Shown here piece after piece: positions 14,291 through 58,925 of a DNA stretch of 64,000 bases. A model generated the notes under the pieces. That model searched no databases, was not told the DNA's origin, and saw only the letters and a program-made list of their open reading frames with translations. Position numbers and translations under genes: made by a program. Where the stretch lies: NCBI RefSeq assembly GCF_009834535.1, contig NC_045696.1, positions 55,802,001 to 55,866,000 on the forward strand, written 5' to 3'. Numbering within the stretch: position 1 is the stretch's first letter; every line of letters begins with the position of its first letter. The DNA comes from Camelus ferus. Its lineage: Eukaryota.

Positions 14291-34260
<19,970 letters not shown>

Positions 34261-39099: not shown

Positions 39100-40050
39100 C
39101 TCGGGATAAGTGGCACCAAGACGCATCTGCAATGGCCTCGGTCCGTTCTAGACACGAGAATGGACTTCGCCCAGTCCGGGAGGCTTCGCGTGCTGTGGCA
39201 AGGTGGGTTGGGCTTACATTTGCGCAAGTTGCCTTCTCCTTTCCGTTCTCCGCTTGTATTGAATACTGCAGTTTCTAAATCTACAAGAGATTTCTGTTGT
39301 TTTAAACACGCTAAGCTACTTCAGCCTACGAACTACCTCTGGCCTGTGGAAACTGCCTGACCCCAGTCGGCCTGACACAGGATGCCCAGGGAAACGGGGC
39401 CGGAGGCGGGGCCAGACGGCGGTGACCTTAGCTGCTCGCCGCCAACTCACTTCCGGCGGGCGGGCACCGCTAAGGTTCCTCCTGTCCCCTACCGGAAGTG
39501 TTTTCGGCTCTGGCTCCGCCCTCGTTCAGCCCCTTGGCCTTTACCCTTGTTGGGGCGGGACTTCCTGTCTCGTGCGTCCAAGGGCTTCTACAGTGACGAC
39601 CGGCACTGAGGGCAAGTGTGCCTAAGCGGTGTGGCCTCGAACACTACGGCCTAGTGTACGGGAAACCGGCCACTCATTCTTGTAGTTATCCTCTCTCCTC
39701 CCACGGCGCCTCCAGGGGGCTTTGGGGCCCTGAGCGCCCAAGTGTGTGTCTGCCAGCAGGTTGGGAGAGGCCATGGAGGCGCGGCCGCCGGCGCCACAGA
39801 CCTTCATCTACAGGGCGCTGGGTCCTTTCCCTCGGGTCTTTGCTGCTGAAGCCGTGGCTGCCGATTCCAAGGCTGTTGTGGAGGACCAGAAGCTGCCTTC
39901 CTATGTCCAAGAGCCCCATACCCCGGAATCTGGATGGGACCGCCTCCGGGAGCTGTTTGTCAAAGAGTAAAAGTGCCTACGGTCTGTGGGGAGGGATTAC
40001 GAAGGAGGTGACCTGCAACCTGAGTCATCTAAGGCGAAGGACCCCCGGGT
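39100..40050 (+). promoter_or_regulatory. TIMMDC1 CpG-island promoter with ETS/GABP motifs (CACTTCCGG 39448-39456, CCGGAAGTG 39492-39500, ACTTCCTG 39560-39567), GC boxes and a TGACCTT nuclear-receptor half-site (39423-39429)
   Basis: CpG-rich region upstream of and overlapping exon 1; motifs read directly. Confidence 0.8.
39773..39966 (+). CDS. TIMMDC1: TIMMDC1 exon 1 coding part
   Basis: gccATGg strong Kozak; [32 protein letters not shown]...[13 protein letters not shown]; donor AAA GA|gtaaaa; 194 nt. Confidence 0.95.
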
Positions 40051-43000
40051 GGTGTGATTTATTTTTAAATGGGATTAAGGGTTCTATTATTTGTACTCCC
40101 AAGTTTGTATCCTAACATTGCCATTTGGTAGTTTTATGACAGGCCGGTTTTTAGATAGTAAGGGTGAGACTCATTGAAAGTCAGTGCTTTTAGGGATATT
40201 TAGAGAATATAGTCTTAGTGTAATTTCCTGATTTTACAGATTAGAAGAATTGGACCAAGGTACTTAGTGACCCAGGAACCCACGTCTGCAGGACTTCATT
40301 CCATTGTTCTTTTTCATATTTCATTTGATCCCAGATTTTGATGGTTTATGACCAGTAGCCCTCCTCCCCGCTGTTAAAATGGAAGTTGGAGAGATAACAG
40401 AGAGTTGTAAAATGTTTATTCTGCCAATTTTTGAATATATAAAAAAAATAGTAGCAACTGTTGTCTCATCATTTTATGAAAGTAATTAGTTGGATTCACA
40501 GGTAAGGGTGTTTCAGAATAAAGGATAAATAGCCCTTTATATTGAATTAACTTTAATGGAAAACTCAGGATAATTTTATCATTTTTTCATTCATCACTTA
40601 CTGGTGAAGAGGTGGCCCTTTTATTAAGTACTTTACCATATACACACTGTGTTATCAAGTGGTTAAATTAACATTGAAGCTTTATTATGTTGCTGAGATA
40701 GTTGGAGCAAGGTAGCTGGTGGAATTGTATTTAATTACTTTATTTAGGTTTCATCATCTTTATTTTAAAGATGAGGCTGCCTGTCTCATTGGACCGTCTA
40801 AAATTTACTTGAGGTACTTGTGAACAATCCTATGTAGTATAAAACAGAAAAGGGTTATTTTGATTAGTTTTATAAATCACAGAATGTTGGAGCTGAAAGA
40901 AATTTGAAAGATAATTTAATGTAACTTTCATCCTCTCCTGTTATGGGTGAGGAAACCAAGGTTCAGAGCGATTTAATCTGGCTGCAGATCACTTAGCAGT
41001 GGATGACAGAACCACAACCACAACCCCATTGTTGTTACTTACAGTCTAGGTCCTTACCACCACTGTGCCCTGTTTCTTCACCATTCGTTAGCTGTTAGGG
41101 CCCATCTTGTAACTTCTTAGAGCCTCTTGATAAAATGGAGAAAAATGTCACCTATGTCATGGAATTTTTAGAGGATGAAAAAGAGGAAATCATATGCATT
41201 TCCTGGCTTGTTAAATCTTAAGCCTTTACATTTTCTCTTTTCTGAGTTCTACCAGTTTTCATGTAAATGTTGTTTTTGATTATTCATTATAAAAGATAAA
41301 ATACAAAGTTCAAATTGTATCATTTTTTCCTATTGTTATAGAAATTAGCTTCCTAAGAGATTTTATTTAGGTTTCTCTCTTGTATATGCAAGAACTATAA
41401 CAACTCAGTGATTTTGATTTCAGAAATGTCGTGGTTGTTATTGGTAATTAGAATCAGATAAACACTTGTACAATGTCTGAAGAAAGCAAATTGGTAATGT
41501 AAAAAGTTAACATTTAGTAGTTTACTTACACAGGAGGGCCATTGTTCATAATAACCTAACACTTAACAAACTTAGCTGTTTGTTAGAGCAATTTCCAGAG
41601 GATATCTTGAAAGCTCCAGTACAGGGTCTTGTTTCTTACGATTTTGAGAGTAATAGATTGAGTGAAATGGTACCTTTTCCCTATTTTTTTAGGTTGGTCT
41701 CTGCTTCTCATTCAGTGCTCTTTAATTGTATTGTGTAGGCCTATCTGGGCTGACATAAAAATTAAGTATTCAGAAAGGTAACTTTTAGATTTTTTTTTTA
41801 TATCTAGGAATTCATTCTTGCATACATTGTCCTAAAATCTCATAAGTTTGTGTGATTTCCAAAAGTTATCTAAAAATTCAAAAAGGGAAATACTGATCTC
41901 TACATCCAATTCACAAATTCTTTCTGTTTCCAGGGATATAGTAGAGCTGTAATAGTCATCAATTAGAATCACCTTTAAAAAAAAAAACCTTTTTTATTGG
42001 AGTATAGTATGCATCTAGAAAAATGTACATAAGTATACTGGTGGATGGCTTCTGTGTATCCAGCCCCAAGAGACTGTTAACAGCATCCTAGCAGCTCCCC
42101 CTTGTGTCTCTTCCTTGTTACTACCTTCCCAAGAATAACCACTAGCCTAATTTCTGAGAGCATAGATTAGGTTTGGCTGAGATTTGAGCTACTTGTAATG
42201 TAGTTATTTAATTCATCAGAGGATTTAACTGGTTCTGCCCATCATGAAAATTGTGATCCTGTTAGTGTTTGGGATAATTTTGATCTACTGTCTTGGAAGG
42301 TGGTATCCATAAACTAATTGCAAACAACACTGTCTTTTTGATGTTTCAGTGAACAGCAGAGAACTTCAAAAGAACTTCAGGATATTTATAGGGCAGCAAT
42401 TTCAGCAGGTGTCATTGGCTGGGCATATGGGGGGATACCAGCTTTTATTCATGCTAAACAGCTGCTACGTTGAGCAGAGCCAAGCAGAAATTTACCACAA
42501 CCAGCTTGATGCTGTGGTACGTACTGGTATTCTAACAGGGCACACCTCTGTAGCAGTTCACTTTACACTTAATCATCCAGTTAGATGGTAGGGTTGGGAG
42601 GGTTTAGGAAACACACTTTTCTTATCATCAGAATAGATCACCACTATGGCCTTACTGTCTGACACATATTTCTAATCCCCTGCTAAATCATCAGGGTTCA
42701 GCTATAACTTATTTATCCTATTCACGGAGCCTCCATGTAGTACACTAGCTCAATAATTACCTGAAACAATAATTACCACTTAGAGCTTTACACTTTATAG
42801 ACTGCCAACCCATTTGTTATATCTTAGATCTGTACATCAGTTTTGTTGAATTAGTGAGGAACTTACAGCTCAGAATTCTTTGTTTTTTGAGGGTTTTGGT
42901 TTTTTTTTTTTTTTTTTTTTTGAAATTGTGTGAGACTTAAAGGTTGCAGAAGTAGTACCAGTGTTCCTTAGTATCCAAGGGGGATTGGTTCCAGGACTCC

Positions 43001-46000
43001 TGAAAGATACCAAAATCTGCAAATGTTCAAGTTCATTTTATAAAAAGGCACAGTACCATAGCCTTCCTCCCCCCCAACCCCACCCATATCTATGGTTCCA
43101 TATCCTCAGATTCCAAATTGGAGTATACAAAGGGCCACCCGTACAGAGAATTACTGTATACCTTTCAATCAGATTTCCCAAATGTTAACATTTTACCATA
43201 TTTGCTTTCTCATTCTCTCTTTGTATACATCATACTATTTTTTTGTGAACCTCCTTGGGAGTAAGTTATAGACCCGATAAGTGCTTCAGCATGTATTTCC
43301 TAAAAACAAGGACATTTTCATCTCTAACCACAATAAAATTATGCAGAACAGGACATTAAACTGATGGGTGACTATTATCTATGGACTTTATGTAAATTTT
43401 GCTAGTTGTCCTACTAACACAATTTATTTTAAAAGTAAATAAATCTTAAAAATTTTTTTTTCTTGTCCAGCACCTAAAACTAGATCAGATGTTGAATTTG
43501 TCTGTCATGCCTCTCTAGACATTTTCCTTTAATCTAGAATAATTTTTCGGTTGTTCTTTGTTCTTTGTTTCATGACTTTGATTTTTTTTTCTTTTATTTA
43601 TTTTTTTTAAGAATATGGACCATTTATTTTGTATAATGTCTCTCAATTTGGATGTTTGATGTTTTCCTGTGATTAGATTTTACTTACATGTTTCCCAGGA
43701 ATACCCTAGAATTGATGTTGTATTGTCAGTAAGTAAGGGTAAGAAGCACAAGATAGCTAATTGTTCTTGTACTGCTGATGCTTACTGTAGTCACTTAGTT
43801 AAGATGGTCCCTGCCAGATTTATCCTGTAAAATTACTATTTTTTACCTTTGTAGTTAATAAGTATCTAATGAATACTTATTAGATACTTTGAGACTATGG
43901 AATCTCCTATTTTTCATCAGATTTCTACCCTCTATTTTTAGCATTCAATGCTAATTCTTGCCTGGAACAGTTATTACTGTGGTGGTTGCCAGATGGCAAT
44001 TTTCTCTCTTTTTATTTATTTATTTTTAAACATTTTTTTTAATTTATTTTTGGGGAGGTAATATTTATTCATTTTATTCATTTATTATCATCATTTTTTA
44101 TTCAACAGAGGTACTGGGGAACGAACCCATGACCTCGTACATGCTCAGCATGTGCTCTACCACTGAGCTATACCCTCCCCCTAGATGGCCATTTTCTAAT
44201 TCCATCATTCAGTCTACATTTATTGGTTAGTATTCTGCTATAAAGAAGAGCTTTACTTTCCCTCTGTTTATACATTTATCTATTTATAATTTATTCAATG
44301 TGGTCTTATGGATTCTTACTTTATTCTGTAGTTTTATAATCCATTATTATTATCATTTATTTTGATACTCAAATTGGCCTGGAATTGGAGTGTTGGAGCC
44401 CCTTCAGATTAGCTCCTATGTCCTTTCGATATGTCCCTATTATTCTTTGAGCACACCTTTACTTTTTGGCACAGCAAGGTGTTCCTGGCTCATATCTTGC
44501 TTTTCAAGCACCAGCCTTGGAATAAGCCTATTTCACCAAGGAGTTATGGTTTCTTTTAACATGGTATTTAAAAACCAAGATGTGGTAGTGGGTATGTTCA
44601 TTGCTACTAGGGTATCATTGCTTCTAGGCCCTAGGCAGGTAGAGTTAGAAAATGTGTATGTGTATGTGTCTGTGTGTGATTTATACACATTAATGCACAT
44701 ATATGTATCTTTTAATATTTACATACCTATTTGTTAAAAGCCATATGTTTGCACTGATACCTTTCAGAGAGGTTTTGACTTGCCCAATATCCAATACATG
44801 TAGTAGTTAAGACTACTCTTAGGGATTCTATCAGATTCTTTAAAAATCTAGGCTTTACCCTCATGACATTATGACTTGCTTTATGGTGGTCGTGTGAAAA
44901 TGGGCTGTGGAAGCAGACAACCTAACTTCCAGTTCTGGCTTTATTCCTTATTACCTCAGTGATCTTGGTAAGAAACTTCCTCTCTTTGCTTTAGCTAAAC
45001 TAAAACACCTGCTTGAAAAAAAATGTAACGATTAAATGAGGTAATATGTTAAAACTTTTACCTAGAAGGTGATCAGTAAGATCAGTAAAGATTTTTTCTT
45101 CCTCTCTTCCTTTCCTGCACGTATGTATGACTTAATCCTTACCCTTTACTGTTTACTCAGTTCTTCTTTATTTTGTATTTTTCTTTTCCCCACAATTACT
45201 TGAAAAAAAGTATGTCTAATACTGATTTTATGTCTGTTGTGGTGTTTGTTAGAGTCTCAGTTGATAATTGATGGATCACTTGGTTGACATAGGCATTTGT
45301 TAGTTCCTTTTCCACCTCCTGATCGGATGCACATGGTACTTCTGCTTAAGTCTCAGTACTCAAAGAATGATATGTCTAGAGATTTTCTTTTGTTTCTGTC
45401 TGTTTAGGTGTCCCTACCTAATCCATAGCTGACGTTCCTCTGCCACAGTTTTAGAATAAGAAAATATCAAGGTGTCTCAGGACCTCATCGCGTTTTTATT
45501 CACTTTAGCAATCTGCACATCGTGCTGCCACGCGAGGCTTCATCCGGTATGGCTGGCGCTGGAGTTGGAGGACTACCGTGTTTGTGACTATATTCAAGTA
45601 AGTTCTCTGAATTGTGACAGACAGTCTTGGATATTCTTTTAGAAGCACATCTTTTGAGCAAGTGAAATTATGAAAACCGAATGCCCATATGAAAGTGGTT
45701 CATAATACTTTTTTCTCAAGAACTGTTATCTATTTGTGTAAAAGATTGGTCCAGTTGTAGTTTTGCATCCATGGATGGAGGTTTACCAACTAGTATTAAA
45801 ATGGATACAGGGTTGCTAAGTAAGGGGAATTCTGCTGAACTCTTCTTTACATTCTGTTGCTAATTGGCATATTACAGTAACCTGAACCAAAGGAGCCTAG
45901 ACCAGCACCAGGGATTGACATAATAGGCTCTTCTAAACTAATAATAAGTAGCACTTTAGTGAAAGAGTCAAGAAGGTAAATGAAATATGCTTTAAATTTT

Positions 46001-49000
46001 ATGTTTTCCTCCTCTTTTAGCACAGTGAACACGGGTCTAAATGTGTACCGAAATAAAAATGCTCTAAGCCATTATGTTATTGCAGGAGGTAAGACATTTT
46101 TGCTCTTATTTACATTTTTCAATCTCAAATGTGGTTTCAGTAATACATAAAGACTTAGAAGTCATGGCTACTGAATTCTTTAGTTGGCTTGTCCTCACAT
46201 CTCATTCAACATTCATGCAAATTTTAACATTCATGCAAAATGTATGGAGAGTATTGTGCTTGGTCCTGGGTATATTTGGTGGACAAAACAGAAAAGCTAT
46301 CCAAACCAAACTCTTGTCTTTGTACCCTAACTTGCACATTTGCTCCTGCTATATGTTCTCTATAATCTGCCCTGTTAAATTCCAAAACTGGAAATCAAGT
46401 AGTTATGTGGTTCAGCCCTTTATTTCCCCTTTCCAAACTTCTGCTTCTGTTAATTTTATTCCTTAAATATATATGGACTCTCTCACCTCCTCTTTGTTTC
46501 CACTGCTGCTGTCAGGTCTTCCCTGTTCCTAATCTTGGTTTGCTTCATCACTACTGTTACCTTACTTTTTTGAAATACGAACAAGATTATAACATTTTTC
46601 TGCTTCAGATTCTTCCACAGTTTCCCATTACTATAATGTCAGTTTTTGGCCTGACCTCATGCACCATTCTTGCCCGAGCCTTATGAATCTACTTGTGTTT
46701 CTCAAACCCAGCATATTCTTGCTTTACACATGTTGGTCTCTTCTTGAACCCACCTTCCTGCTTCCACAACTAATTTTGTTCAGATCCTTATTTAACCTGT
46801 CTTTCAAGGTTCACTTCAATCTGTCAGGCTCAGCTTTCCCTAAAGAGTTCTCCTAGCCCCTATTTCCCTATCTTAGGTCCCTTTCCCCTGTGTTCTCATT
46901 ATTTACTATAAATAGTGTTATCAGCGCAATTATCACAGTATATTGTAGTTGTTTACTTGTTTTGCTTCCCTGCTAGACAACTTACTTGAATTCAGAGAAA
47001 GTGTTTGCCTTTATTTCACAATTGTTTGATTCATAGCAGGATAGAATAAAGGTTTCTTGATTGAATATAAATAATAGTAAAATAAGAATAGAAAAATATA
47101 TCTGATAGAATATGTATTTTATCTCAAACCAGCAACCAACATTAAAATTAATGGTGTAACATTAAAGTAATTTATCCTGAAGTCAGAATCAGGTAAGGAT
47201 GTCTCTCCCCTCACCATTATTATTTGACACTGGTCTGGACCAATGTATTTTTTGACATCTAGAAGTATTTTTGACATCTAGAATGCCTTTGTAAGTACCT
47301 TGGCAAATCCTCTCCCCCCAAAATAACAATAAAACTGGAAAAAATTATCAAAAACAACCATTTAAAAATTCTGGAAATTGACCAAGGACACACAACAAAT
47401 TAAGAAGCGTTTATTCAAGAATTTCTACTGCATCTCAGTAAGAACAGTGGGAGTCTGTAGTGTTTCAGCCTGAGACTGCTCACCACTCCTAGCCCCCAGC
47501 TCCATGATGTAGAAGTTCCGCAGGGGGAGGGCAGGTTGAGAGGATCAACAGTTCTGCTGTTTGAGGTGGCTGATTTGATTTGGAGCGGAGCATGTAAAAT
47601 TCCATACCTAGGGTCAACAGTTAGGGAAGGACAGTATCACACAGCTAACCTGAGGTTTTGATATTGTCTGGGGAAGCAATAGACTTGCAGATGAGGCAAA
47701 GTGTTAATAGAGATTCCAGGGAATAAGAAAGCCAAAGAAGGCTTTAGTAAGATCCTGCTAATCCCCCTGGAAAGTTACCCATATGTGTAAGTACACTCAG
47801 GAGAGACTGGTGAGGGCCCTAGCAAGCTACTTATCTTTGGTTAATTGTGAGGCCTCATGAACACAGAAAGTAAAAGCTGGAAAGGATTTATAAACTGCTT
47901 AAAGCTTGAGTGCATTCTTCAAGCCACAGACAGATCCACTAAGAGAGGGTAGCAGCCTTCTGGCTTAATACAACCTTTGACAAATCATTAGCTGACTACT
48001 AAGCAGTGTGACTCCTAGGATGCCAAACATAAAAATAAAAACTGAGCAGAAGTAATAGTGGCTGCACTCTGGCAAATCATTACATAAACAGAACCACAGC
48101 CATGCCCCTGGGTAGGGCGATGTTCCAACTTGGGTTGTTATAATTTAATACCTAAAAGTCCCAGTTTTCAAAAACAACAAAAATATCACATGACATGCAA
48201 AAACAGGGAATTTTTTTAAAAGCAGTTATTGGGTATGTCTGCGTCAAGGGCTATCTATTGGATATAACAGGAGACTTCAAGCTATTTTAAAAGAATAAAA
48301 TCAAAGTGTGATGACTATTATATAGAAAATATCAATGAAGATGGAAATTATTTTTAAAAGAATCAAATGAAAATTACGGAGTTAAATACAATAATGGAAA
48401 TTTAAAATTCATTAGAGAAGAGGCACTCAACAGCTGATTTGAGATAGCATAAGAGAATTGGTGAACTTGAAGATAGATCAATGTAGATTATCTTTTACAA
48501 AGGACAGAATTTTTAAAAATGAAGACAAGTGAACAGAGCCTCAGAGATCTGTGGGACACAGTCAAGAATATTAACACGTGTGATGAAGAGGGAAGAAAAA
48601 GTATTTTAAGAAATTATGGCCGCAAACTTCCCAAATTTGATGAAAAACATTAATCTACATACCCAAGAATCTCAACAAACTCCAAGAAGAATAAACATGA
48701 AGAGATTCACACCTAGACATATAATAGTTACACTGTTGAAAGGTAGAGAAGAATCATGAAAGCAGCAAGACAAAAACAACTTACACAGAAATGCCCAGTA
48801 AGATTCACAGCTGACTTCTTAACAGAATGCTAGAAGACAGAAGGCGGTAGAGTGACAAAGTGCTGAAAAGAATAAGCTATCAACCAGTAATTCTGTATCT
48901 AGCAAACCATCCTACAAAATTGAAGGCAAAAATAAAGACATTGGCAGATGATGAAAGAGGCTTTGTTGCCAACAGACTTGCTTTCCAAAAACACTGAAGT

Positions 49001-52000: not shown

Positions 52001-55000
52001 TATTGAAGGACATTTTGGTTGCTTCCAAGTTTTGACAGTTATGAGCACAACTGCTGTAAACATCTGTGTTCAGGTTTTTGTGTGTACGTAAGTTTTCAAC
52101 TCTTTTGTGTCATTGCTGGATGGTGCAGTAAGACTATGTTTAGTTTTATAAGAAACCACCAGTCTTCTAAAGTAGAGACACCATTTTGCATTCTCACCCG
52201 GAAGGAATGCAAGTTTTTGTTGCTCTATATCCTCATCCAGCATTTGGTGGGGTTGTCAGTGTTCCAGATTTTGGCTAATAGGTTTTTAGAAATATTTGGT
52301 TTGGAAGAGAAGACTGAAATGAATCTGTAGTACTTAAATAAGGAATAAACCTCAAATGTTAATTTTTAAAAATGTTACCACCTGGAATGGCATTAGTTGT
52401 GTTGTACATGTTGAAAGAGGAAAACGAATGGACATCTTGAGTGTTCAATCTTAGTGAGAAGGAAAGTCGGCCTGTGCCCCGGCCACCAGATGGCGTTGTA
52501 GGCCAACTGCCCACTCACAGGCCTGCTCCAGAGGTGTAGGGTAGCTGTACAGACAGGGGAAGGCTGGGGGAAGGCATAAACTGCAGGGGCTGGTGAAGGT
52601 GTTATTTATTTGGGGAACGCTTTCCTTAGAGAAGGGAAGAAATGAAAGAGGTGAAAGTGAAGAAATAATAGACTTTTAAGGTGAGGTTGGCAAAAATGAA
52701 GCAGAATAACAAGAGGTTAGGTCCGTGGAACAGATTGAGCAATTCAGTTTGTAAAAGGACCATTTCTTCCTTTGAACCTGCAGAGTGGATAAGAAGCTGG
52801 CTGTAACTGTACTTTAGATTCAGGAAATGCTAGGTTGTGGTGGTATATTTATGTTGGGTTCAGAAAGCTTATTTAGAGGTTTATGCCCTTTTTATAGAGG
52901 GGATATTTTTAAATGGAACTCTAGTGTTAAAAGATGATTTAATATTGCATTTTGTTTGTTTCTTTTAAAATAGCTGTCACAGGAAGTCTTTTTAGAATAA
53001 ACTTAGGCCTGCATGGCCTGGTAGCTGGTGGTGTAATTGGAGCCTTGTTAGGGTAAGTGTTAACGTGGTTTGATTCTAAATTAACATAACTTTTATTCAT
53101 GCCTTGCCTGTTAAAAGTCTCATCATTTCTAAAGAACAAATTTAATCCTTAGGGCCTATAAAAGGTCTCTAGTCTTGTATTGGCAGTAGCTTTGACTATC
53201 TAATTCTGATTCTACCCTAATTGTTGACTTGGAGTTTTCACCAGGTAAAAACTGTTTAAATATCACTAACACCTGAAACTATTTGAGGTTTGAACAAAGA
53301 TATTATAAGGGGCAGGAAAAAAAAATAAGAAACAGTTAAAGAGCACATTCTGTAAGAATTTTTCAGTTAGGTTTTATTTGTTTAGTTTAATAAACTTTAA
53401 GAATTTTCTTCTCCAATTTTTACTTTGAAAAATTTCAAACCTGTAGAAAAGTTGAATTAGTACCCTTCACTTAGATTCACCAATTGTTAACATTTTTCCA
53501 TATTTGTTTTCTCTCTCTGTATATGTGTGGGATGTGTGTAGATTTCTTTTTCTTTTTTTTTTTTCCAAACCATTTGAGACCTCATAATTCTTCAGCTCTA
53601 AATACATCAGCATATATCTCCCAGGATGAAGAACATTCTCCAATGATATCACAGAACAGTTATCATAATAAATAATTTGGCATTGATTCAGTACTATCTA
53701 AGATAGGGTCCAAATTCAAAATTCCTCAGTTATAATAATACATATATAATTTTTAAAAATCCAAGATCTAATTGTTTCTTGCATTTTGTCATCATGTCTC
53801 TTTAGATTCCCTTAAGTTAGAATGGTTCCACTGCCTTTATTTCCCCAAGAATATTTCTCAATTTTACTTGATTATCCCTTCATGATTAGATTTAAGTCGA
53901 ATATTTTCATGAGGAACACAACAGAGGTGAAGTTGTATCCTTCTCATTGTATCACATCAAGAGACATATTATGTCACCCATTGTAAGTGATGCTAACCTG
54001 GTGTGTCAGTTTTCTGTTGCTGTATAACCACAAATTCAGCAGCTCGAAACACCACCCACTTATTATATCACTTTTCTGTAGGTCAGAAGCCTGGGTAGGC
54101 TCAGATGGGTTCTCTGCTCAGGATTTCAGAGACCAAAATCAAAGTGTTGGCCACACAGGCTCTTAAACTGGTGGCTCTGCAGGAAGAATTTGTTTTCATA
54201 AAGTTCAACTTGTTGACAGAAACCTTTGTGGCTGTAGGTCTGAAGTCCTCATTTCCTGGCTTGCTGTCAGCCAGGCACCACCCTGTTCCTAGACGCATCC
54301 ACATTCCTTCCCACAGTGCCCGCTTCGTGTTCAAACCAGCAACCAGCATGTTGAATCCCTCTCATACTTTTAATCTCTCTGACTTCTATTCTGCCACCAA
54401 CTGGAGAAAACTGCTTTTAAAGGGTTCACCCAGATAATCTCCTTTTTGATTGGCTCAGATTCAACTGATCAGTAACCTTAATTCCATCTGTAAAATTCGT
54501 TTTGCTGTGTAACATAATATAATCACAGGCATAATACTGTATTCATAGTTGAGAAATTAGGACAGGAAATTTCAGGGGACCATTTTAGAATTCTGCCTAC
54601 CATGTTTGGTATCTACTAAATTTCTCCACTGCAATATCTTTTTCCCATTGTGGTTAATAAGCAATCTGTGGGGTAAGACTGTGTGAACAGCCCACTGTCT
54701 GGCTATCTTTCTTCTAGTGGTTTTAATGACCCATTGATGATCCCTGTTGGAATCAGTTATTATAAAGGTGGTTGTAAAACATCCCTTTTTATATCCCCTT
54801 TTGGGGAGGAAACAATAAAGCTTTATGGATTTTTTTAAATTAAAAATTGTTTTGAAATTCAGCATGTTACAACCTATTGCTGACCTTATTTTTGTTGTGT
54901 TGTTAATATACTAGCTTGGTTTGAAGGGAAAAATTATTGAATTAGCCACAAAATAATTTTTTTATTGTGGTTAAAAAAAAGCCTAACATAAAAATTACCA

Positions 55001-58000
55001 TCTTAACCACTTTTAAGTGTACAGTTCAGTAGTGTTAACTATATTCACGTTGTGCAACAGATCTCTAGAACTTTTTCATCTTGCAAAACTGAAACTGTCC
55101 CCATTAAACACTAATTCTCCCTTCCCCCACCACACATCCTTTGGCAGCCACCTTTCTACTTTCTGTTTCTGTGATTTTGACTACTATGTACTTCATATGA
55201 ATGGACTCATACAATATTTATCCCTTTATAACTGGTCTGTTTCCTTAGCATACTGCCCTTGAGGTTCATCCACATTGTAGCATGTGACAGGGTGTCCCTT
55301 TTTAGAGCTGCATAATAGTCCACTGTATATACCACATTTCCTTTATGCATTCATCATTGATGAATATCTCTACCTAGCAAAAACAGTTTTAAAAATGTGG
55401 TTACAACTTAATTTATATCAGAGTCAAAAACTCCTTCTCTTTGAAAACACGGACCAAACCCTCTTTATTACTGTCCTGATTGTTATCTAAATCAGTTTTT
55501 CGGTGAGCATTCGGGGTTGAGGTTAGTTGTGCCAGACTCTTGAATTTTAGGATGTTTTGGCAGCTCCACCCCTAAAAGCCAGTACCATCCTTCCCACAAC
55601 CAAAAATGCCTTCCACATTTCTTGCCCCTTAAGGGGATCTGATAACCATTCCTGATATTAATTTCACTTCTAAGAAACCTTCAGTATAAAGCTGCTTATT
55701 GGAACTTGTCATAAATATATTTTTCCCACTTTATTTATCATTCGTGATGAAAAACAGCCAGTTTATAGACCTTTTGTTTTTATACCAGTTAATTTTAGGA
55801 AGTTGCGATGATTGTTTTTTCTTTTATTCAGACCAGGAAGGAAATTACCTTAATATTTTTTATTTGACCAGGACACTTTAATTGTCAGATGTTCCTGTAT
55901 ATGTCAGTGAGCAGGTGGCTCAGTTGGTGTTGCTTGTGCCTTAGCAGAAACACTCAACGTGTTGCATGGTCTAATGGCTCTTTCTCCTAAGCATTCCCTC
56001 CGCCTCCCCCTCAGCACTCCTATAGGAAGCCTGTTGATGGCACTTCAGAAGTACTGTGGTGAGACAGTTCAGGAGAGAAGACAGAAGGATCGAAAAGCAC
56101 TCCAGGAGCTGAAACTGGAAGAGCGGTAAGGAGCACACATTAGGATCAGGGTTTCTGACTTCCCTATCTGCAGGCTATGGTGCTCTCTGAAACTAAGGAC
56201 TGTAAATTGCCACTCAATTCAAAGAAGAGTTTCTTTTTACCTTCAGCTTGTACCCACCCTGGTCTTTTAATCTTTTTAATTAAGGAGAATGGAACAATGA
56301 AAGACACTGAGAATCTTTCCTTAGATACATTTCTTTTAAAAGTTAAAATGTTGTAAATCTCATTTAGTTGCCTATTTTTTCTTTTCCTATGTTCTCGGTT
56401 GCATAGGAAATAAATTTCCTTTACTTGCCTTTATTTAAAGATGATCTCCTTGTTTACACACACATCTATGAACACTACAGAGCATGTAAGGCCTCCACAT
56501 TCAAAGATTCTACTTCTTGATGTGGATGCACAGGAATTCAGCAGATACAGTGGCTGTTCATGGACTGGATGCCACTGAGAAGGATGTAAACTGTCACCTG
56601 TTCATCTAGTCACTCTCTGAGGTCCAGTGATAGCGGACTTCGTGCTACTTCTTTGTAAGAGCATCATAATAGGCTGTCATCTAGTGCTTTGGTACAAATG
56701 ATTCTCATAGTTCTGCTTTCTGGCCGCTAAGATGACATCTGCTGCTACTGCTGCTTTGATAGTTGAATAGATAAGTGGTCTTCTTTTTCCCATGTTTTTA
56801 CTTGAAACTTCCGTTTGTGCTAAACACATACATACACACATACACGAAAATTCTTAGTATCTGAATACCTCTTGTCCAAGGACTTAGGTGCTATAGAAGA
56901 AAGAGCATTGATTTTGGAGCCAATGAAACCTTGAAAACAAAGCTTACATCCCAGCTAGACTATTAATTAATTTTATAACCTTAGATGTTTTCCTTGACTT
57001 TAAGCCCTCAGCTGTTCAAAAGGCAGAATCACACCACAATATTCAACATATGTTTGTTTCACACCTTCCTCTTCTCCATAGTAAGAGAGTGAGTGAGATA
57101 TGCAGCTGTCTAGGTTCTAGGATAAAGCACTTGAAATTCTGAATGCCAGCATAAAATTTGATATTATGGAGAATTAAAAGCCTGAAAGCATTAGCTTATT
57201 TCTAATTCTTTAGGTGTCATAAGACTTCTTTTTTAAAAAGGAAGCTTTGAGAAAGGAATTGGAAAGGTGTAAGGAAAGTATATTGGTTATTTGAATCTGA
57301 TATAGGAAGTTATAGAAAATTGACATTTGGAAAAATATGAACAAATAATAATTGTATTCCAATCAGGAAAAAGAAAACCAAAAAAAAAAAACAAACTAGA
57401 GAAGTCACTTAACTAGCAATGGAAAGCCTCAAGAATGGGTAAAAACAATAACTTGAACTATAGAAATGGAAGAATATTTTGGCAGAAGAAAATAGTGTCA
57501 AAAGTATATAGGTTATTTAAATTTATGTGGAATTCTGAGGAGAGTTAGTAAATAAAGAACTTTTTATATGTCTGCTTCTTTGCTTGAAAATAACTACAGT
57601 ATAGAGAAATCAAAATGAGAATCTAAAAAGTTGCCTTAGTGAGGAGAAAATATAGAACACTGACTGTAGAGATATGGAAAAAGAAATGGTCAAATCTGGC
57701 TCTGAAGAGTTGAGAAGAAAGTCATAGGTGACCCTGATAACCACTTAAAGAAAGAAAGACAATAATACTTGACTTGGAAAAAGAACTGATTTGGAAATTG
57801 ATTTTAACTCCTAGTAAACATACATCTGTAGTGTTGTCCTATCTGACTTCTGTACCGAGATTTTCAATGTTACAACCTTTGTGCATGTCCTACAAAGTCT
57901 GTCAACAGAGTTTAACAGAGTGGTGGGGGATTTCCCTGGGCCCTGGGGCCTGAGGACAAAAGGACAGTCTTGTTTCAAGGCTCACACCTTAGTTCAGGGT

Positions 58001-58417
58001 GTCATCTCAGAGAGCTCCGGAATATCTTCAGGATCAGAGCTGCTGCCCCAGCAATGTCCATTTTGGTAATGTAAGAATCTTAGTTGGCTTGTGAGTGGAA
58101 TAGATTGGGAGAGAGAAGAAAGTCATTGTATTTAAAGTGTAAGGAGCAGTGTTTGCTAATAAGTTGTAGGAGAGAATGAGATAAATACTATCTTAAAAAA
58201 TAAACTCTCTAAGAACTAAAGAAATGGAGCAGTACTTGATACATACTTTTCATTCTTTGATTACAGGAAAGCCAGAATACAATTTACTGAGCTCCTCCCT
58301 GAAGAAATTGAAAGTAGTTTACAGAAAAATCAACCCAAGGATGATGCTAAGAAAATTGAAGCACTGCTAAATCTTCCTCGAAACCCTTCTTCGACAAATA
58401 AGCAAGACAAGGACTAA
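39773..58417 (+). CDS. TIMMDC1: TIMMDC1 (Tim17/22/23-family mitochondrial complex I assembly factor); join(39773..39966,42350..42516,45509..45597,46021..46088,52974..53052,56015..56125,58267..58417); 285 aa if one extra base in exon 2 is removed, 105 aa as written
   Basis: Seven GT-AG exons translate to TIMMDC1-like segments ([50 protein letters not shown]...QDKD*). Total length is 859 nt = 858+1. Confidence 0.95.
42350..42516 (+). CDS. TIMMDC1: TIMMDC1 exon 2 (contains an apparent +1 frameshift near 42462-42465)
   Basis: [37 protein letters not shown] reads in one frame and [17 protein letters not shown] in the next. Acceptor tttcag|T, donor GTG|gtacgt; 167 nt. Confidence 0.92.
42959..43143. 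mobile_element. MER2/Tigger-like DNA transposon remnant
   Basis: GTATCCAAGGGGGATTGGTTCCAGGAC...GATACCAAAATCTGC. Confidence 0.65.
44006..44182 (-). mobile_element. tRNA-Ala-derived SINE (Vic-1-like) inserted in old LINE-like sequence
   Basis: Same consensus as the other copies; 15-bp TSD AGATGGC(A/C)ATTTTCT at 43991-44005 and 44183-44197. Confidence 0.85.
45509..45597 (+). CDS. TIMMDC1: TIMMDC1 exon 3
   Basis: [29 protein letters not shown]; 89 nt. Confidence 0.95.
46021..46088 (+). CDS. TIMMDC1: TIMMDC1 exon 4
   Basis: [22 protein letters not shown]; 68 nt. Confidence 0.95.
47130..51370 (+). mobile_element. Old degenerate LINE-1 (ORF1 and ORF2 remnants) in TIMMDC1 intron 4
   Basis: A-rich plus strand. 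ORF1-like AACTTCCCAAATTTGATGAAAAAC, endonuclease-region GATCCAACTATGCTGTCTGCAAGAGAC and RT-region AAAGCCCAGGACCAGATGGCTT. No long ORF. Confidence 0.85.
51455..52290 (-). mobile_element. Old LINE-1 3' end (L1MC/MD-like)
   Basis: TTTTAAAGCAGTTTTAGATTCACAGCAAAATTGAGCAGAAG...CCATTTTGCATTCTCACC is typical of L1 3' sequence. Confidence 0.75.
52481..52498 (+). promoter_or_regulatory. Candidate CTCF site GGCCACCAGATGGCGTTG
   Basis: Matches the CTCF core CCASYAGRKGGCR at 52483-52495, in a small GC/CpG-retaining patch within an AT-rich intron. Confidence 0.6.
52974..53052 (+). CDS. TIMMDC1: TIMMDC1 exon 5
   Basis: [25 protein letters not shown]; 79 nt. Confidence 0.95.
54003..54602 (-). mobile_element. 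MaLR (MLT1-like) LTR
   Basis: TGTGTCAGTTTTCTGTTGCTGTATAAC...TCTGTAGGTCAGAAG...CCATTTTAGAATTCTGCCTACCA. Confidence 0.7.
56015..56125 (+). CDS. TIMMDC1: TIMMDC1 exon 6
   Basis: [36 protein letters not shown]; 111 nt. Confidence 0.95.
58267..58417 (+). CDS. TIMMDC1: TIMMDC1 exon 7 coding part
   Basis: [49 protein letters not shown]; 151 nt. Confidence 0.95.
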
Positions 58418-58880: not shown

Positions 58881-58925
58881 AATAAAAATCAAAGATGGTT
58901 TCTATGCCATTTGAAAGAAAATAAA
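58881..58925 (+). terminator. Candidate TIMMDC1 poly(A) signals (AATAAA at 58881 and 58920)
   Basis: Two AATAAA hexamers about 460-500 nt after the stop, with a T-rich upstream element. Confidence 0.6.

What the first reader, a model, noticed from the sequence alone, without database searches (positions are those of the whole stretch)
42455..42473. +1 frameshift and premature TGA in TIMMDC1 exon 2 of an otherwise intact gene
Seen in sequence: the frame from exon 1 reads ...GCT AAA CAG CTG CTA CGT TGA (AKQLLR*, stop at 42471-42473). The conserved [12 protein letters not shown] continues one base out of frame. Exon 2 is 167 nt, whereas 166 nt would give an 858-nt, 285-aa ORF. The extra base lies around 42462-42465, not in a homopolymer (the nearby G6 run is in frame). 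The other six exons, the splice sites and the promoter are intact. Established knowledge: TIMMDC1 is needed to assemble the membrane arm of complex I, and biallelic loss causes complex I deficiency in humans. Inference: as written this gives a 105-aa NMD-targeted product. It is therefore most likely an assembly error, or a heterozygous loss-of-function allele captured in the consensus, rather than a fixed gene loss.
Basis: partly seen in the sequence, partly recalled or inferred. Interest (0 to 1): 0.8.

Follow-up and report, generated by a model that had tools for sequence, protein, structure and literature searches.

The report
One-base frameshift in camel TIMMDC1
A camel genome assembly carries one extra T in exon 2 of the otherwise perfect mitochondrial complex I assembly gene TIMMDC1; it is most likely a sequencing or consensus error that NCBI's annotation has already flagged, not a real gene loss.

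Summary
The window is a Camelus genomic region holding POGLUT1 and then TIMMDC1. TIMMDC1 has seven exons with canonical splice sites. Exon 2 (42350-42516) is 167 nt, the frame coming from exon 1 stops at TGA 42471-42473, and the conserved sequence continues one base out of frame. As written the CDS is 859 nt and gives 105 aa.

Leaving out T42463 gives a 285-aa protein identical at 285 of 285 residues to the C. dromedarius/C. bactrianus protein. Leaving out G42464 or C42465 gives a protein identical at 285 of 285 to an NCBI model named "LOW QUALITY PROTEIN ... TIMMDC1 [Camelus ferus]". That label marks frameshift-corrected models, so the break is already flagged.

Thirteen of 14 camelid protein entries read Arg at the site; only the flagged model reads Leu. 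The 13 come from five other assemblies, including an older C. ferus one. The gene is single-copy in this genome and shows no other damage.

The read-level test could not be done, because read laying returned an error and its single call was used. A consensus error (about 0.72) is therefore not formally separated from a private, probably heterozygous, allele (about 0.22). Fixed loss is very unlikely. Interest is low.

The parts
39400..39999 (+). CpG-rich region around the TIMMDC1 start (presumed promoter and 5' end)
   Evidence: GC 0.58-0.66 and CpG o/e 0.49-0.84 in 200-nt bins. Promoter function is inferred, not tested.
39773..39966 (+). TIMMDC1 exon 1 (ATG to ...AAA GA|gt), 194 nt
   Evidence: The encoded residues equal P0111.
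42350..42516 (+). TIMMDC1 exon 2, 167 nt as written (166 expected); encodes the start of the Tim17 domain
42463..42463 (+). The most likely extra base: a T inside what would be the Arg103 codon CGC (a CpG). Without it the gene gives 285 of 285 identity to P0111.
   Evidence: Arg at this column in 13 of 14 camelid entries and in 91 of the 108 proteins that carry the motif.
42471..42473 (+). Premature TGA in the frame set by exon 1; the product as written is 105 aa
45509..45597 (+). TIMMDC1 exon 3, 89 nt
46021..46088 (+). TIMMDC1 exon 4, 68 nt
52974..53052 (+). TIMMDC1 exon 5, 79 nt
56015..56125 (+). TIMMDC1 exon 6, 111 nt
58267..58417 (+). TIMMDC1 exon 7 coding part, ending in TAA; the first AATAAA downstream is at 58881

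Best explanation
The window is a Camelus chromosome stretch with a normal, single-copy, seven-exon TIMMDC1 gene. The assembled consensus holds one spurious T at 42463, inside the Arg103 codon (CGC written as CTGC). This shifts the frame, creates TGA at 42471-42473, and would cut the protein to 105 aa, after about 24 of the roughly 119 residues of its Tim17 domain. The animal's real gene most likely reads CAG CGC TAC and encodes the usual 285-aa complex I assembly factor. NCBI's pipeline already met this break and issued a frame-corrected 'LOW QUALITY PROTEIN' model, which drops a different base and so shows Leu103. Shown: the break, its exact place, the intact rest of the gene, the intact orthologues, and the flagged model. 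Inferred: that the T is absent from the animal's DNA.
For: (1) Leaving out T42463 gives a 285-aa product with 0 mismatches to P0111 (C. dromedarius/C. bactrianus). Leaving out G42464 or C42465 gives 0 mismatches to P0119, named 'LOW QUALITY PROTEIN: complex I assembly factor TIMMDC1 [Camelus ferus]'. (2) That label is given when Gnomon corrects a frameshift or premature stop that protein alignment contradicts. Such breaks are described as typical of indel errors in long-read assemblies (passages read in bioRxiv 10.1101/2021.07.16.452324, and PMC12906968). (3) Thirteen of 14 camelid entries read Arg103 in an open frame. Judged by their contig lengths they come from five other assemblies: V. pacos, C. 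dromedarius twice, C. bactrianus, and an older C. ferus scaffold (P0115). (4) There is no other lesion: seven exons, all AG/GT, and every other residue equals the congeners. The neighbouring POGLUT1 exons are also open. (5) There is no second copy or retrocopy in the genome that could have misled polishing or served as a back-up; all 7 matches at E <= 0.001 lie at this locus. (6) Leu occurs at this column in 1 of the 108 proteins with the motif, and that one is the flagged model itself. (7) Base rates, from general knowledge: consensus indels break far more gene models per long-read assembly than real loss-of-function alleles do, and least of all in a gene whose biallelic loss is severe.
Against: No read or contig from any sequencing run was examined, because read laying returned an error and laid nothing. 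The absence of the T from the animal's DNA is therefore not shown. The extra base is not in a homopolymer, where residual long-read errors concentrate, and it does not duplicate a neighbouring base. If the assembly was short-read polished, a unique exon would normally have been corrected, while a heterozygous allele could have been kept. The sequencing method of this assembly was not looked up. The other assemblies were compared only as proteins; a homology-guided gene builder could in principle have hidden the same extra base in P0115, which is unlikely but unchecked. None of the 24 listed runs holds more than 0.93 of the sampled words of 41900-43000. That fits private differences in the window but does not say which words are missing.
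Confidence: 0.72

Rival explanations
1. The T insertion is real DNA: a private or rare loss-of-function allele of TIMMDC1 carried by the sequenced camel, most likely heterozygous, and picked up by the pseudo-haploid consensus. Its mRNA would carry a stop in exon 2 of 7 and be removed by nonsense-mediated decay. A carrier would be healthy because the disease is recessive in humans.
For: The insertion is not in a homopolymer. It turns GC-GCT into GCT-GCT, a quasi-repeat context in which templated insertions can arise (read from the sequence; the mechanism is recalled). Everything else in the gene is perfect, as expected for a very young allele. No listed run holds all sampled words of the region, with a best share of 0.93.
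Against: The same facts fit an error equally well. [quoted passage not shown] Thirteen of 14 camelid entries lack it. A search for the 54-aa ORF that only the insertion form would create found nothing among proteins of 22-72 aa; this is weak, since such short ORFs are rarely called.
Confidence: 0.22
2. TIMMDC1 is truly inactivated, either fixed or homozygous, in this camel species: a unitary pseudogene at an early stage.
For: Only the break itself and the absence of any second copy in the genome.
Against: An older assembly of the species that NCBI names for the flagged model gives an open frame with Arg103 (P0115). There is a single lesion, with all splice sites and all other residues unchanged. 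The gene is single-copy with no back-up. Loss of TIMMDC1 causes severe complex I deficiency in humans (start of the PMC8799713 abstract, seen in the listing).
Confidence: 0.03
3. The insertion is real and is read through by +1 ribosomal frameshifting at CGU UGA G, the last sense codon before the stop (antizyme-like geometry, recalled). This would give a 285-aa protein with LLR in place of RYV.
For: Only geometry: any +1 slip between 42463 and 42473 restores the frame, and a sense codon followed by UGA is the classic +1 site (read; the antizyme comparison is recalled, not tested).
Against: No relative has the shift: 13 of 14 camelid entries, and every non-camelid protein with the motif, read straight through. 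No stimulatory element was sought. There is no precedent for TIMMDC1.
Confidence: 0.005

Closest known systems
NCBI model XP_006190534.2, 'LOW QUALITY PROTEIN: complex I assembly factor TIMMDC1, mitochondrial [Camelus ferus]' (P0119)
   Same: 285 aa. It is identical at 285 of 285 residues to the window's spliced translation when G42464 or C42465 is left out, so it is a frame-corrected reading of this same break.
   Different: The model shows Leu103. Comparison with the other 13 camelid entries (Arg103) points to T42463 as the extra base, so the true residue is most likely Arg.
Intact camelid TIMMDC1 (P0111 C. dromedarius/C. bactrianus; P0004 V. pacos; P0115 older C. ferus scaffold)
   Same: Same seven coding exons, and identical protein if T42463 is left out: 0 of 285 mismatches to P0111 and 1 of 285 to P0004 (Q39 against R39). 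Tim17 domain PF02466 at residues 80-198.
   Different: As written, the window's exon 2 has 167 nt instead of 166 and stops after 105 aa.
Consensus indel errors of long-read assemblies that break gene models (Merfin preprint, 10.1101/2021.07.16.452324; passages read)
   Same: A single-base indel in an otherwise perfect coding exon, flagged by Gnomon as 'low quality'.
   Different: Such errors are commonest in homopolymers (recalled), and this one is not in one. The sequencing technology of this assembly was not looked up.
Human TIMMDC1 loss-of-function alleles causing complex I deficiency (PMC8799713; only the title and the start of the abstract were seen, in the listing)
   Same: If real, the allele would also abolish the protein.
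   Different: The human allele named in that title is intronic and biallelic in patients. Here there is a coding 1-nt insertion of unknown zygosity, and it may not exist in the animal at all.

Membership tests
TIMMDC1 orthologue (Tim17/Tim22/Tim23/Pmp24 family, PF02466) | Tim17 domain above Pfam's gathering score | tested here: met
   The frame-corrected readings P0119 and P0111 score 67.1 and 68.9 bits against a cut-off of 32.7, at residues 80-198. The as-written 40-aa piece of exon 2 and the 55-aa exon with X at the break give no match on their own.
TIMMDC1 orthologue (Tim17/Tim22/Tim23/Pmp24 family, PF02466) | Best sequence relatives are named TIMMDC1, with near-identity to congeners | tested here: met
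   107 proteins at E <= 0.001 among 113 candidates. Nearly all named rows are TIMMDC1, and the top hit is V. pacos at 98% identity. Identity to P0111 is 285 of 285 after leaving out T42463.
TIMMDC1 orthologue (Tim17/Tim22/Tim23/Pmp24 family, PF02466) | Conserved position downstream of POGLUT1 on the same strand (the human gene order is recalled) | tested here: met
   POGLUT1 exons lie from about 14291 to 34260 on the + strand, ahead of TIMMDC1. Two C. dromedarius GenBank models even fuse the two genes.
TIMMDC1 orthologue (Tim17/Tim22/Tim23/Pmp24 family, PF02466) | Open 285-codon reading frame | tested here: not met
   As written the CDS is 859 nt with a stop after 105 aa. The frame is open only if one base of 42462-42465 is left out.
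Frame-corrected 'LOW QUALITY PROTEIN' gene model (annotation class for suspected sequence errors) | The genomic frame break is contradicted by protein alignment, and the model is corrected by the pipeline | tested here: met
   P0119 carries the label and equals the window minus one base. The meaning of the label comes from passages.
Unitary pseudogene (fixed gene loss) | The lesion is shared by other individuals or assemblies of the species, with further decay | tested here: not met
   The older C. ferus entry P0115 reads Arg103 in frame. The window has a single lesion, intact splice sites, and all other residues unchanged. Proteins only were compared, not DNA.
Heterozygous loss-of-function allele | About half of the animal's reads carry the insertion | not testable with these tools
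   Read laying returned an error and laid nothing, and its single call is used. All 24 runs listed are kept as contigs, not raw reads.
Programmed +1 ribosomal frameshift (antizyme type) | Shift site and frame break conserved among relatives | tested here: not met
   No other camelid or mammalian entry has the break. Stimulatory RNA elements were not tested.

The most novel reading that the evidence does not exclude
The T at 42463 is real germ-line DNA and the animal still makes working TIMMDC1 or lives without it. One route is a +1 ribosomal slip at CGU-UGA-G, giving a 285-aa protein with LLR in place of RYV. The other is that a camel tolerates loss of this complex I assembly factor. The milder version, a real heterozygous carrier allele, has a probability of about 0.2 and would be of modest interest as a natural large-animal carrier of a complex I deficiency allele.
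Probability: 0.01. Interest if true: 0.8.

Novelty: not a real feature. Interest (0 to 1): 0.08.

Why it matters
If it is an error, which is the likely case, it matters only as housekeeping. The exon should read CAG CGC TAC, and the public corrected model probably carries the wrong residue (Leu103 instead of Arg103). Gene-loss screens that treat 'LOW QUALITY PROTEIN' as loss, a practice described in PMC12906968 (passages), would wrongly score TIMMDC1 as lost in this camel. If it is real and heterozygous, the sequenced animal would carry a recessive complex I deficiency allele, of some interest for the conservation genetics of a small population. Only a real, homozygous or recoded break would be of wide interest.

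Tried and rejected
1. Read-level test. The look-up of sequencing runs listed 24 runs, of which 20 hold at least part of 41900-43000 and 17 hold half of its words or more. No allele count exists, and the shares say nothing about the site itself.

2. PDB sequence search with the first 40 aa of exon 2. The only row had E 2.6, which is not meaningful.

3. P0110, a 107-aa protein from a Logan contig, was suspected to be the same truncation. It is exon 2 plus intron read-through from another mammal (AKQNYIEQ...) and is unrelated to the break.

4. Protein-database search with the 41-aa piece YVEQ... plus camel intron read-through (42466-42588), near lengths of 22-72 aa. The aim was to catch the 54-aa ORF that only the insertion form would open. 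No candidate was found. This is weak negative evidence only. The 'longer' variant, which might catch intact read-through ORFs of 73-97 aa, was not run; those ORFs have no ATG, GTG or TTG start in camel (reasoned from the exon sequence; one search gave only the ORF extents), so the yield was judged low.

5. Earlier notes of this scan. There was nothing near the place, nothing under 'frameshift' and nothing under TIMMDC1. One search reported that 14 notes fit this genome and showed 8 of them; none of those 8 concerns a frame break.

6. A second copy, retrocopy or alternative haplotig of TIMMDC1 in this genome was rejected: all 7 matches lie at this locus.

7. A wrong exon phase or an alternative acceptor as the explanation was rejected. 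The upstream 38 residues of exon 2 match only in the frame set by exon 1, and the downstream 17 only in the next frame.

8. The G6 run as the source of the shift was rejected, because it is in frame.

Full report
**What is in the sequence**

The stretch 42453-42473 reads GCT AAA CAG CTG CTA CGT TGA. Translated from 42351, exon 2 gives [40 protein letters not shown]. The next frame gives ...[17 protein letters not shown] up to the donor site.

Exon 1 is the ORF beginning [11 protein letters not shown]... at 39773. It ends ...AAA GA|gtaaaa, so T42350 completes an Asp codon and fixes the frame of exon 2.

**Which gene and which organism**

The exon, read with X at the four-letter step CTGC (P0002), found 107 proteins at E <= 0.001 among 113 candidates.
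- Nearly all named hits are TIMMDC1.
- The best is Vicugna pacos TIMMDC1 (98%, that is, every residue except the X).
- Two Camelus dromedarius models that fuse POGLUT1 with TIMMDC1 follow.

A script tblastn with P0004 and P0006 placed POGLUT1 exons between 15158 and 33655, and seven TIMMDC1 exons between 39773 and 58414, all on the + strand. POGLUT1's first exon (about 14291) and last exon (ending KTEL* at 34260) are also present and open.

The window reads EDQKL in exon 1, as the Camelus entries do, not EDRKL as in V. pacos. Earlier notes of this scan on the same genome also call it a camel genome. The window has no N.

**Anatomy of the gene**

With boundaries refined by eye and verified by script, the exons are:

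| Exon | Coordinates | Length (nt) |
|---|---|---|
| 1 | 39773-39966 | 194 |
| 2 | 42350-42516 | 167 |
| 3 | 45509-45597 | 89 |
| 4 | 46021-46088 | 68 |
| 5 | 52974-53052 | 79 |
| 6 | 56015-56125 | 111 |
| 7 | 58267-58417 | 151 (with TAA) |

- Every intron begins gt and ends ag.
- The total is 859 nt, one more than a multiple of three.
- The product as written is 105 aa.
- The Tim17 domain (PF02466) covers residues 80-198 of the full-length camelid proteins, at 67-69 bits against a cut-off of 32.7.
- The as-written product would therefore keep only about 24 residues of the domain.
- A stop in exon 2 of 7 should also trigger nonsense-mediated decay (established rule, recalled).

**Where the extra base is**

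The script left out each base from 42456 to 42471 in turn and compared the 285-aa result with stored camelid proteins.
- Leaving out T42463 gives 0 mismatches to P0111, the protein shared by C. dromedarius and C. bactrianus. It gives 1 mismatch to V. pacos P0004 (Q39 against R39).
- Leaving out G42464 or C42465 gives 0 mismatches to P0119.
- Every other choice gives additional mismatches.

The parsimonious reading is therefore an Arg codon CGC, a CpG, with a T inserted: C-T-GC.

**The break is already flagged in public annotation**

The 90% cluster of P0004 has 12 members. One, P0119 (XP_006190534.2), is named [quoted passage not shown]. It sits on a contig of 122 Mb.

Passages in two papers state what the label means: NCBI's Gnomon gives it when a protein alignment supports a model across an indel or premature stop and the frame is corrected. 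Such corrections track consensus indel errors, above all in ONT- or PacBio CLR-based assemblies (bioRxiv 10.1101/2021.07.16.452324, passages; PMC12906968, passages).

P0119 reads AKQ-L-YVEQ, exactly what this window gives when the third or fourth letter of CTGC is dropped. The window and that model therefore describe the same break.

**Other assemblies**

- Of the 14 camelid entries in hand (12 cluster members plus P0006 and P0007), 13 read Arg at the site and one, P0119, reads Leu.
- Judged by source names and contig lengths, the 13 come from five other assemblies: V. pacos, C. dromedarius RefSeq, C. dromedarius GenBank, C. bactrianus, and an older C. ferus scaffold of 2.8 Mb (P0115, EPY76835.1).
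- Across all 118 stored TIMMDC1-like proteins, 108 carry the motif used for counting and 10 were dropped because the regular expression did not match them.
- The aligned residue in those 108 is R in 91, H in 6, Q in 6, N in 2, S in 1, C in 1 and L in 1. The single L is P0119.
- These rows include isoforms, so they are not independent species counts.
- The comparison is at protein level only; no DNA of other camelids was available to the tools.

**Is there a back-up or a source of confusion?**

The window's own genome is held (2.09 Gb, 2043 contigs). A six-frame search with P0111 scored 11 candidates and gave 7 matches at E <= 0.001, all of them the exons at this locus. There is no duplicate, no retrocopy, and no alternative haplotig for the gene.

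**What could not be done**

The decisive test is to count reads with and without the T.
- The look-up of sequencing runs listed 24 runs. Twenty hold part of 41900-43000, 17 hold half or more of the sampled words, and the best share is 0.93.
- All are kept as contigs, from two main organisms and nine studies.
- A substitute search of the protein collection, for the short ORF that only the insertion form would open, found no candidate. Such ORFs are seldom called, so this weighs little.

**Weighing the explanations**

Fixed loss is effectively excluded, for three reasons.
- There is one lesion and no other decay.
- Every other camelid assembly examined has an intact frame, including one of the species that NCBI names for the flagged model.
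- Loss of the gene is severe in humans (starts of the PMC8799713 and PMC6097471 abstracts, seen in the listing).

The choice between a consensus error and a private allele rests on priors.
- Frame-breaking consensus indels affect on the order of a percent or more of gene models in long-read assemblies; the Merfin passages report less than 3% even after improved polishing.
- A real frameshift in one particular constrained gene of one animal is far rarer (general knowledge).
- Against the error reading, the site is not a homopolymer and the inserted T duplicates neither neighbour.

I put the error at about 0.72, a real and probably heterozygous allele at about 0.22, fixed or homozygous loss at about 0.03, and recoding well below 0.01.

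**Comparison with what is known, and novelty**

The gene is an ordinary TIMMDC1 orthologue. It is a Tim17-family, four-pass inner-membrane assembly factor of complex I (family membership; function from the abstract starts listed and from general knowledge).

The feature is an ordinary frame break of the kind the annotation pipeline corrects and labels. It has in fact been corrected and labelled. The only small addition here is that the correction most likely chose the wrong base, so residue 103 should be Arg, not Leu.

**Verdict**

The feature is probably not real in the animal, and interest is low.

Noticed in passing
window 14291-34260 (+): POGLUT1 lies upstream on the same strand, with all exons found open. 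Exon 1 reads [11 protein letters not shown]..., against MQRWERSQLGL... in the C. dromedarius model P0006. The last exon ends ...KILKTEL* at 34260. Two C. dromedarius GenBank models (P0006, P0007) wrongly fuse POGLUT1 to TIMMDC1, skipping POGLUT1's last exon.
   Followed up: partly
window 46089 onward (exon 4 donor of TIMMDC1): P0007 (C. dromedarius) and P0037 (a Logan-derived protein of another mammal) carry ...VIAGGKTF(L)LLFTFFNLK... after exon 4. This looks like read-through of the exon 4 donor into the intron, either an alternative isoform or a mis-modelled one. It truncates in P0037 and is in frame in P0007.
   Followed up: no
window 39850-40011 (+), overlapping exon 1 in another frame: The 245-aa 'isoform X2' models (for example P0005 of a whale, [28 protein letters not shown]...) start in an alternative frame across the exon 1 donor region. 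The window has the same ORF (…[26 protein letters not shown]). These isoforms also pass through exon 2, so they would not escape the frame break.
   Followed up: no
window 42462-42467: The inserted T creates the palindrome CAGCTG and the tandem GCTGCT out of what would be the palindrome AGCGCT. It is a quasi-repeat context at a CpG. This might matter for either a templated mutation or a methylation-linked base-calling error.
   Followed up: no
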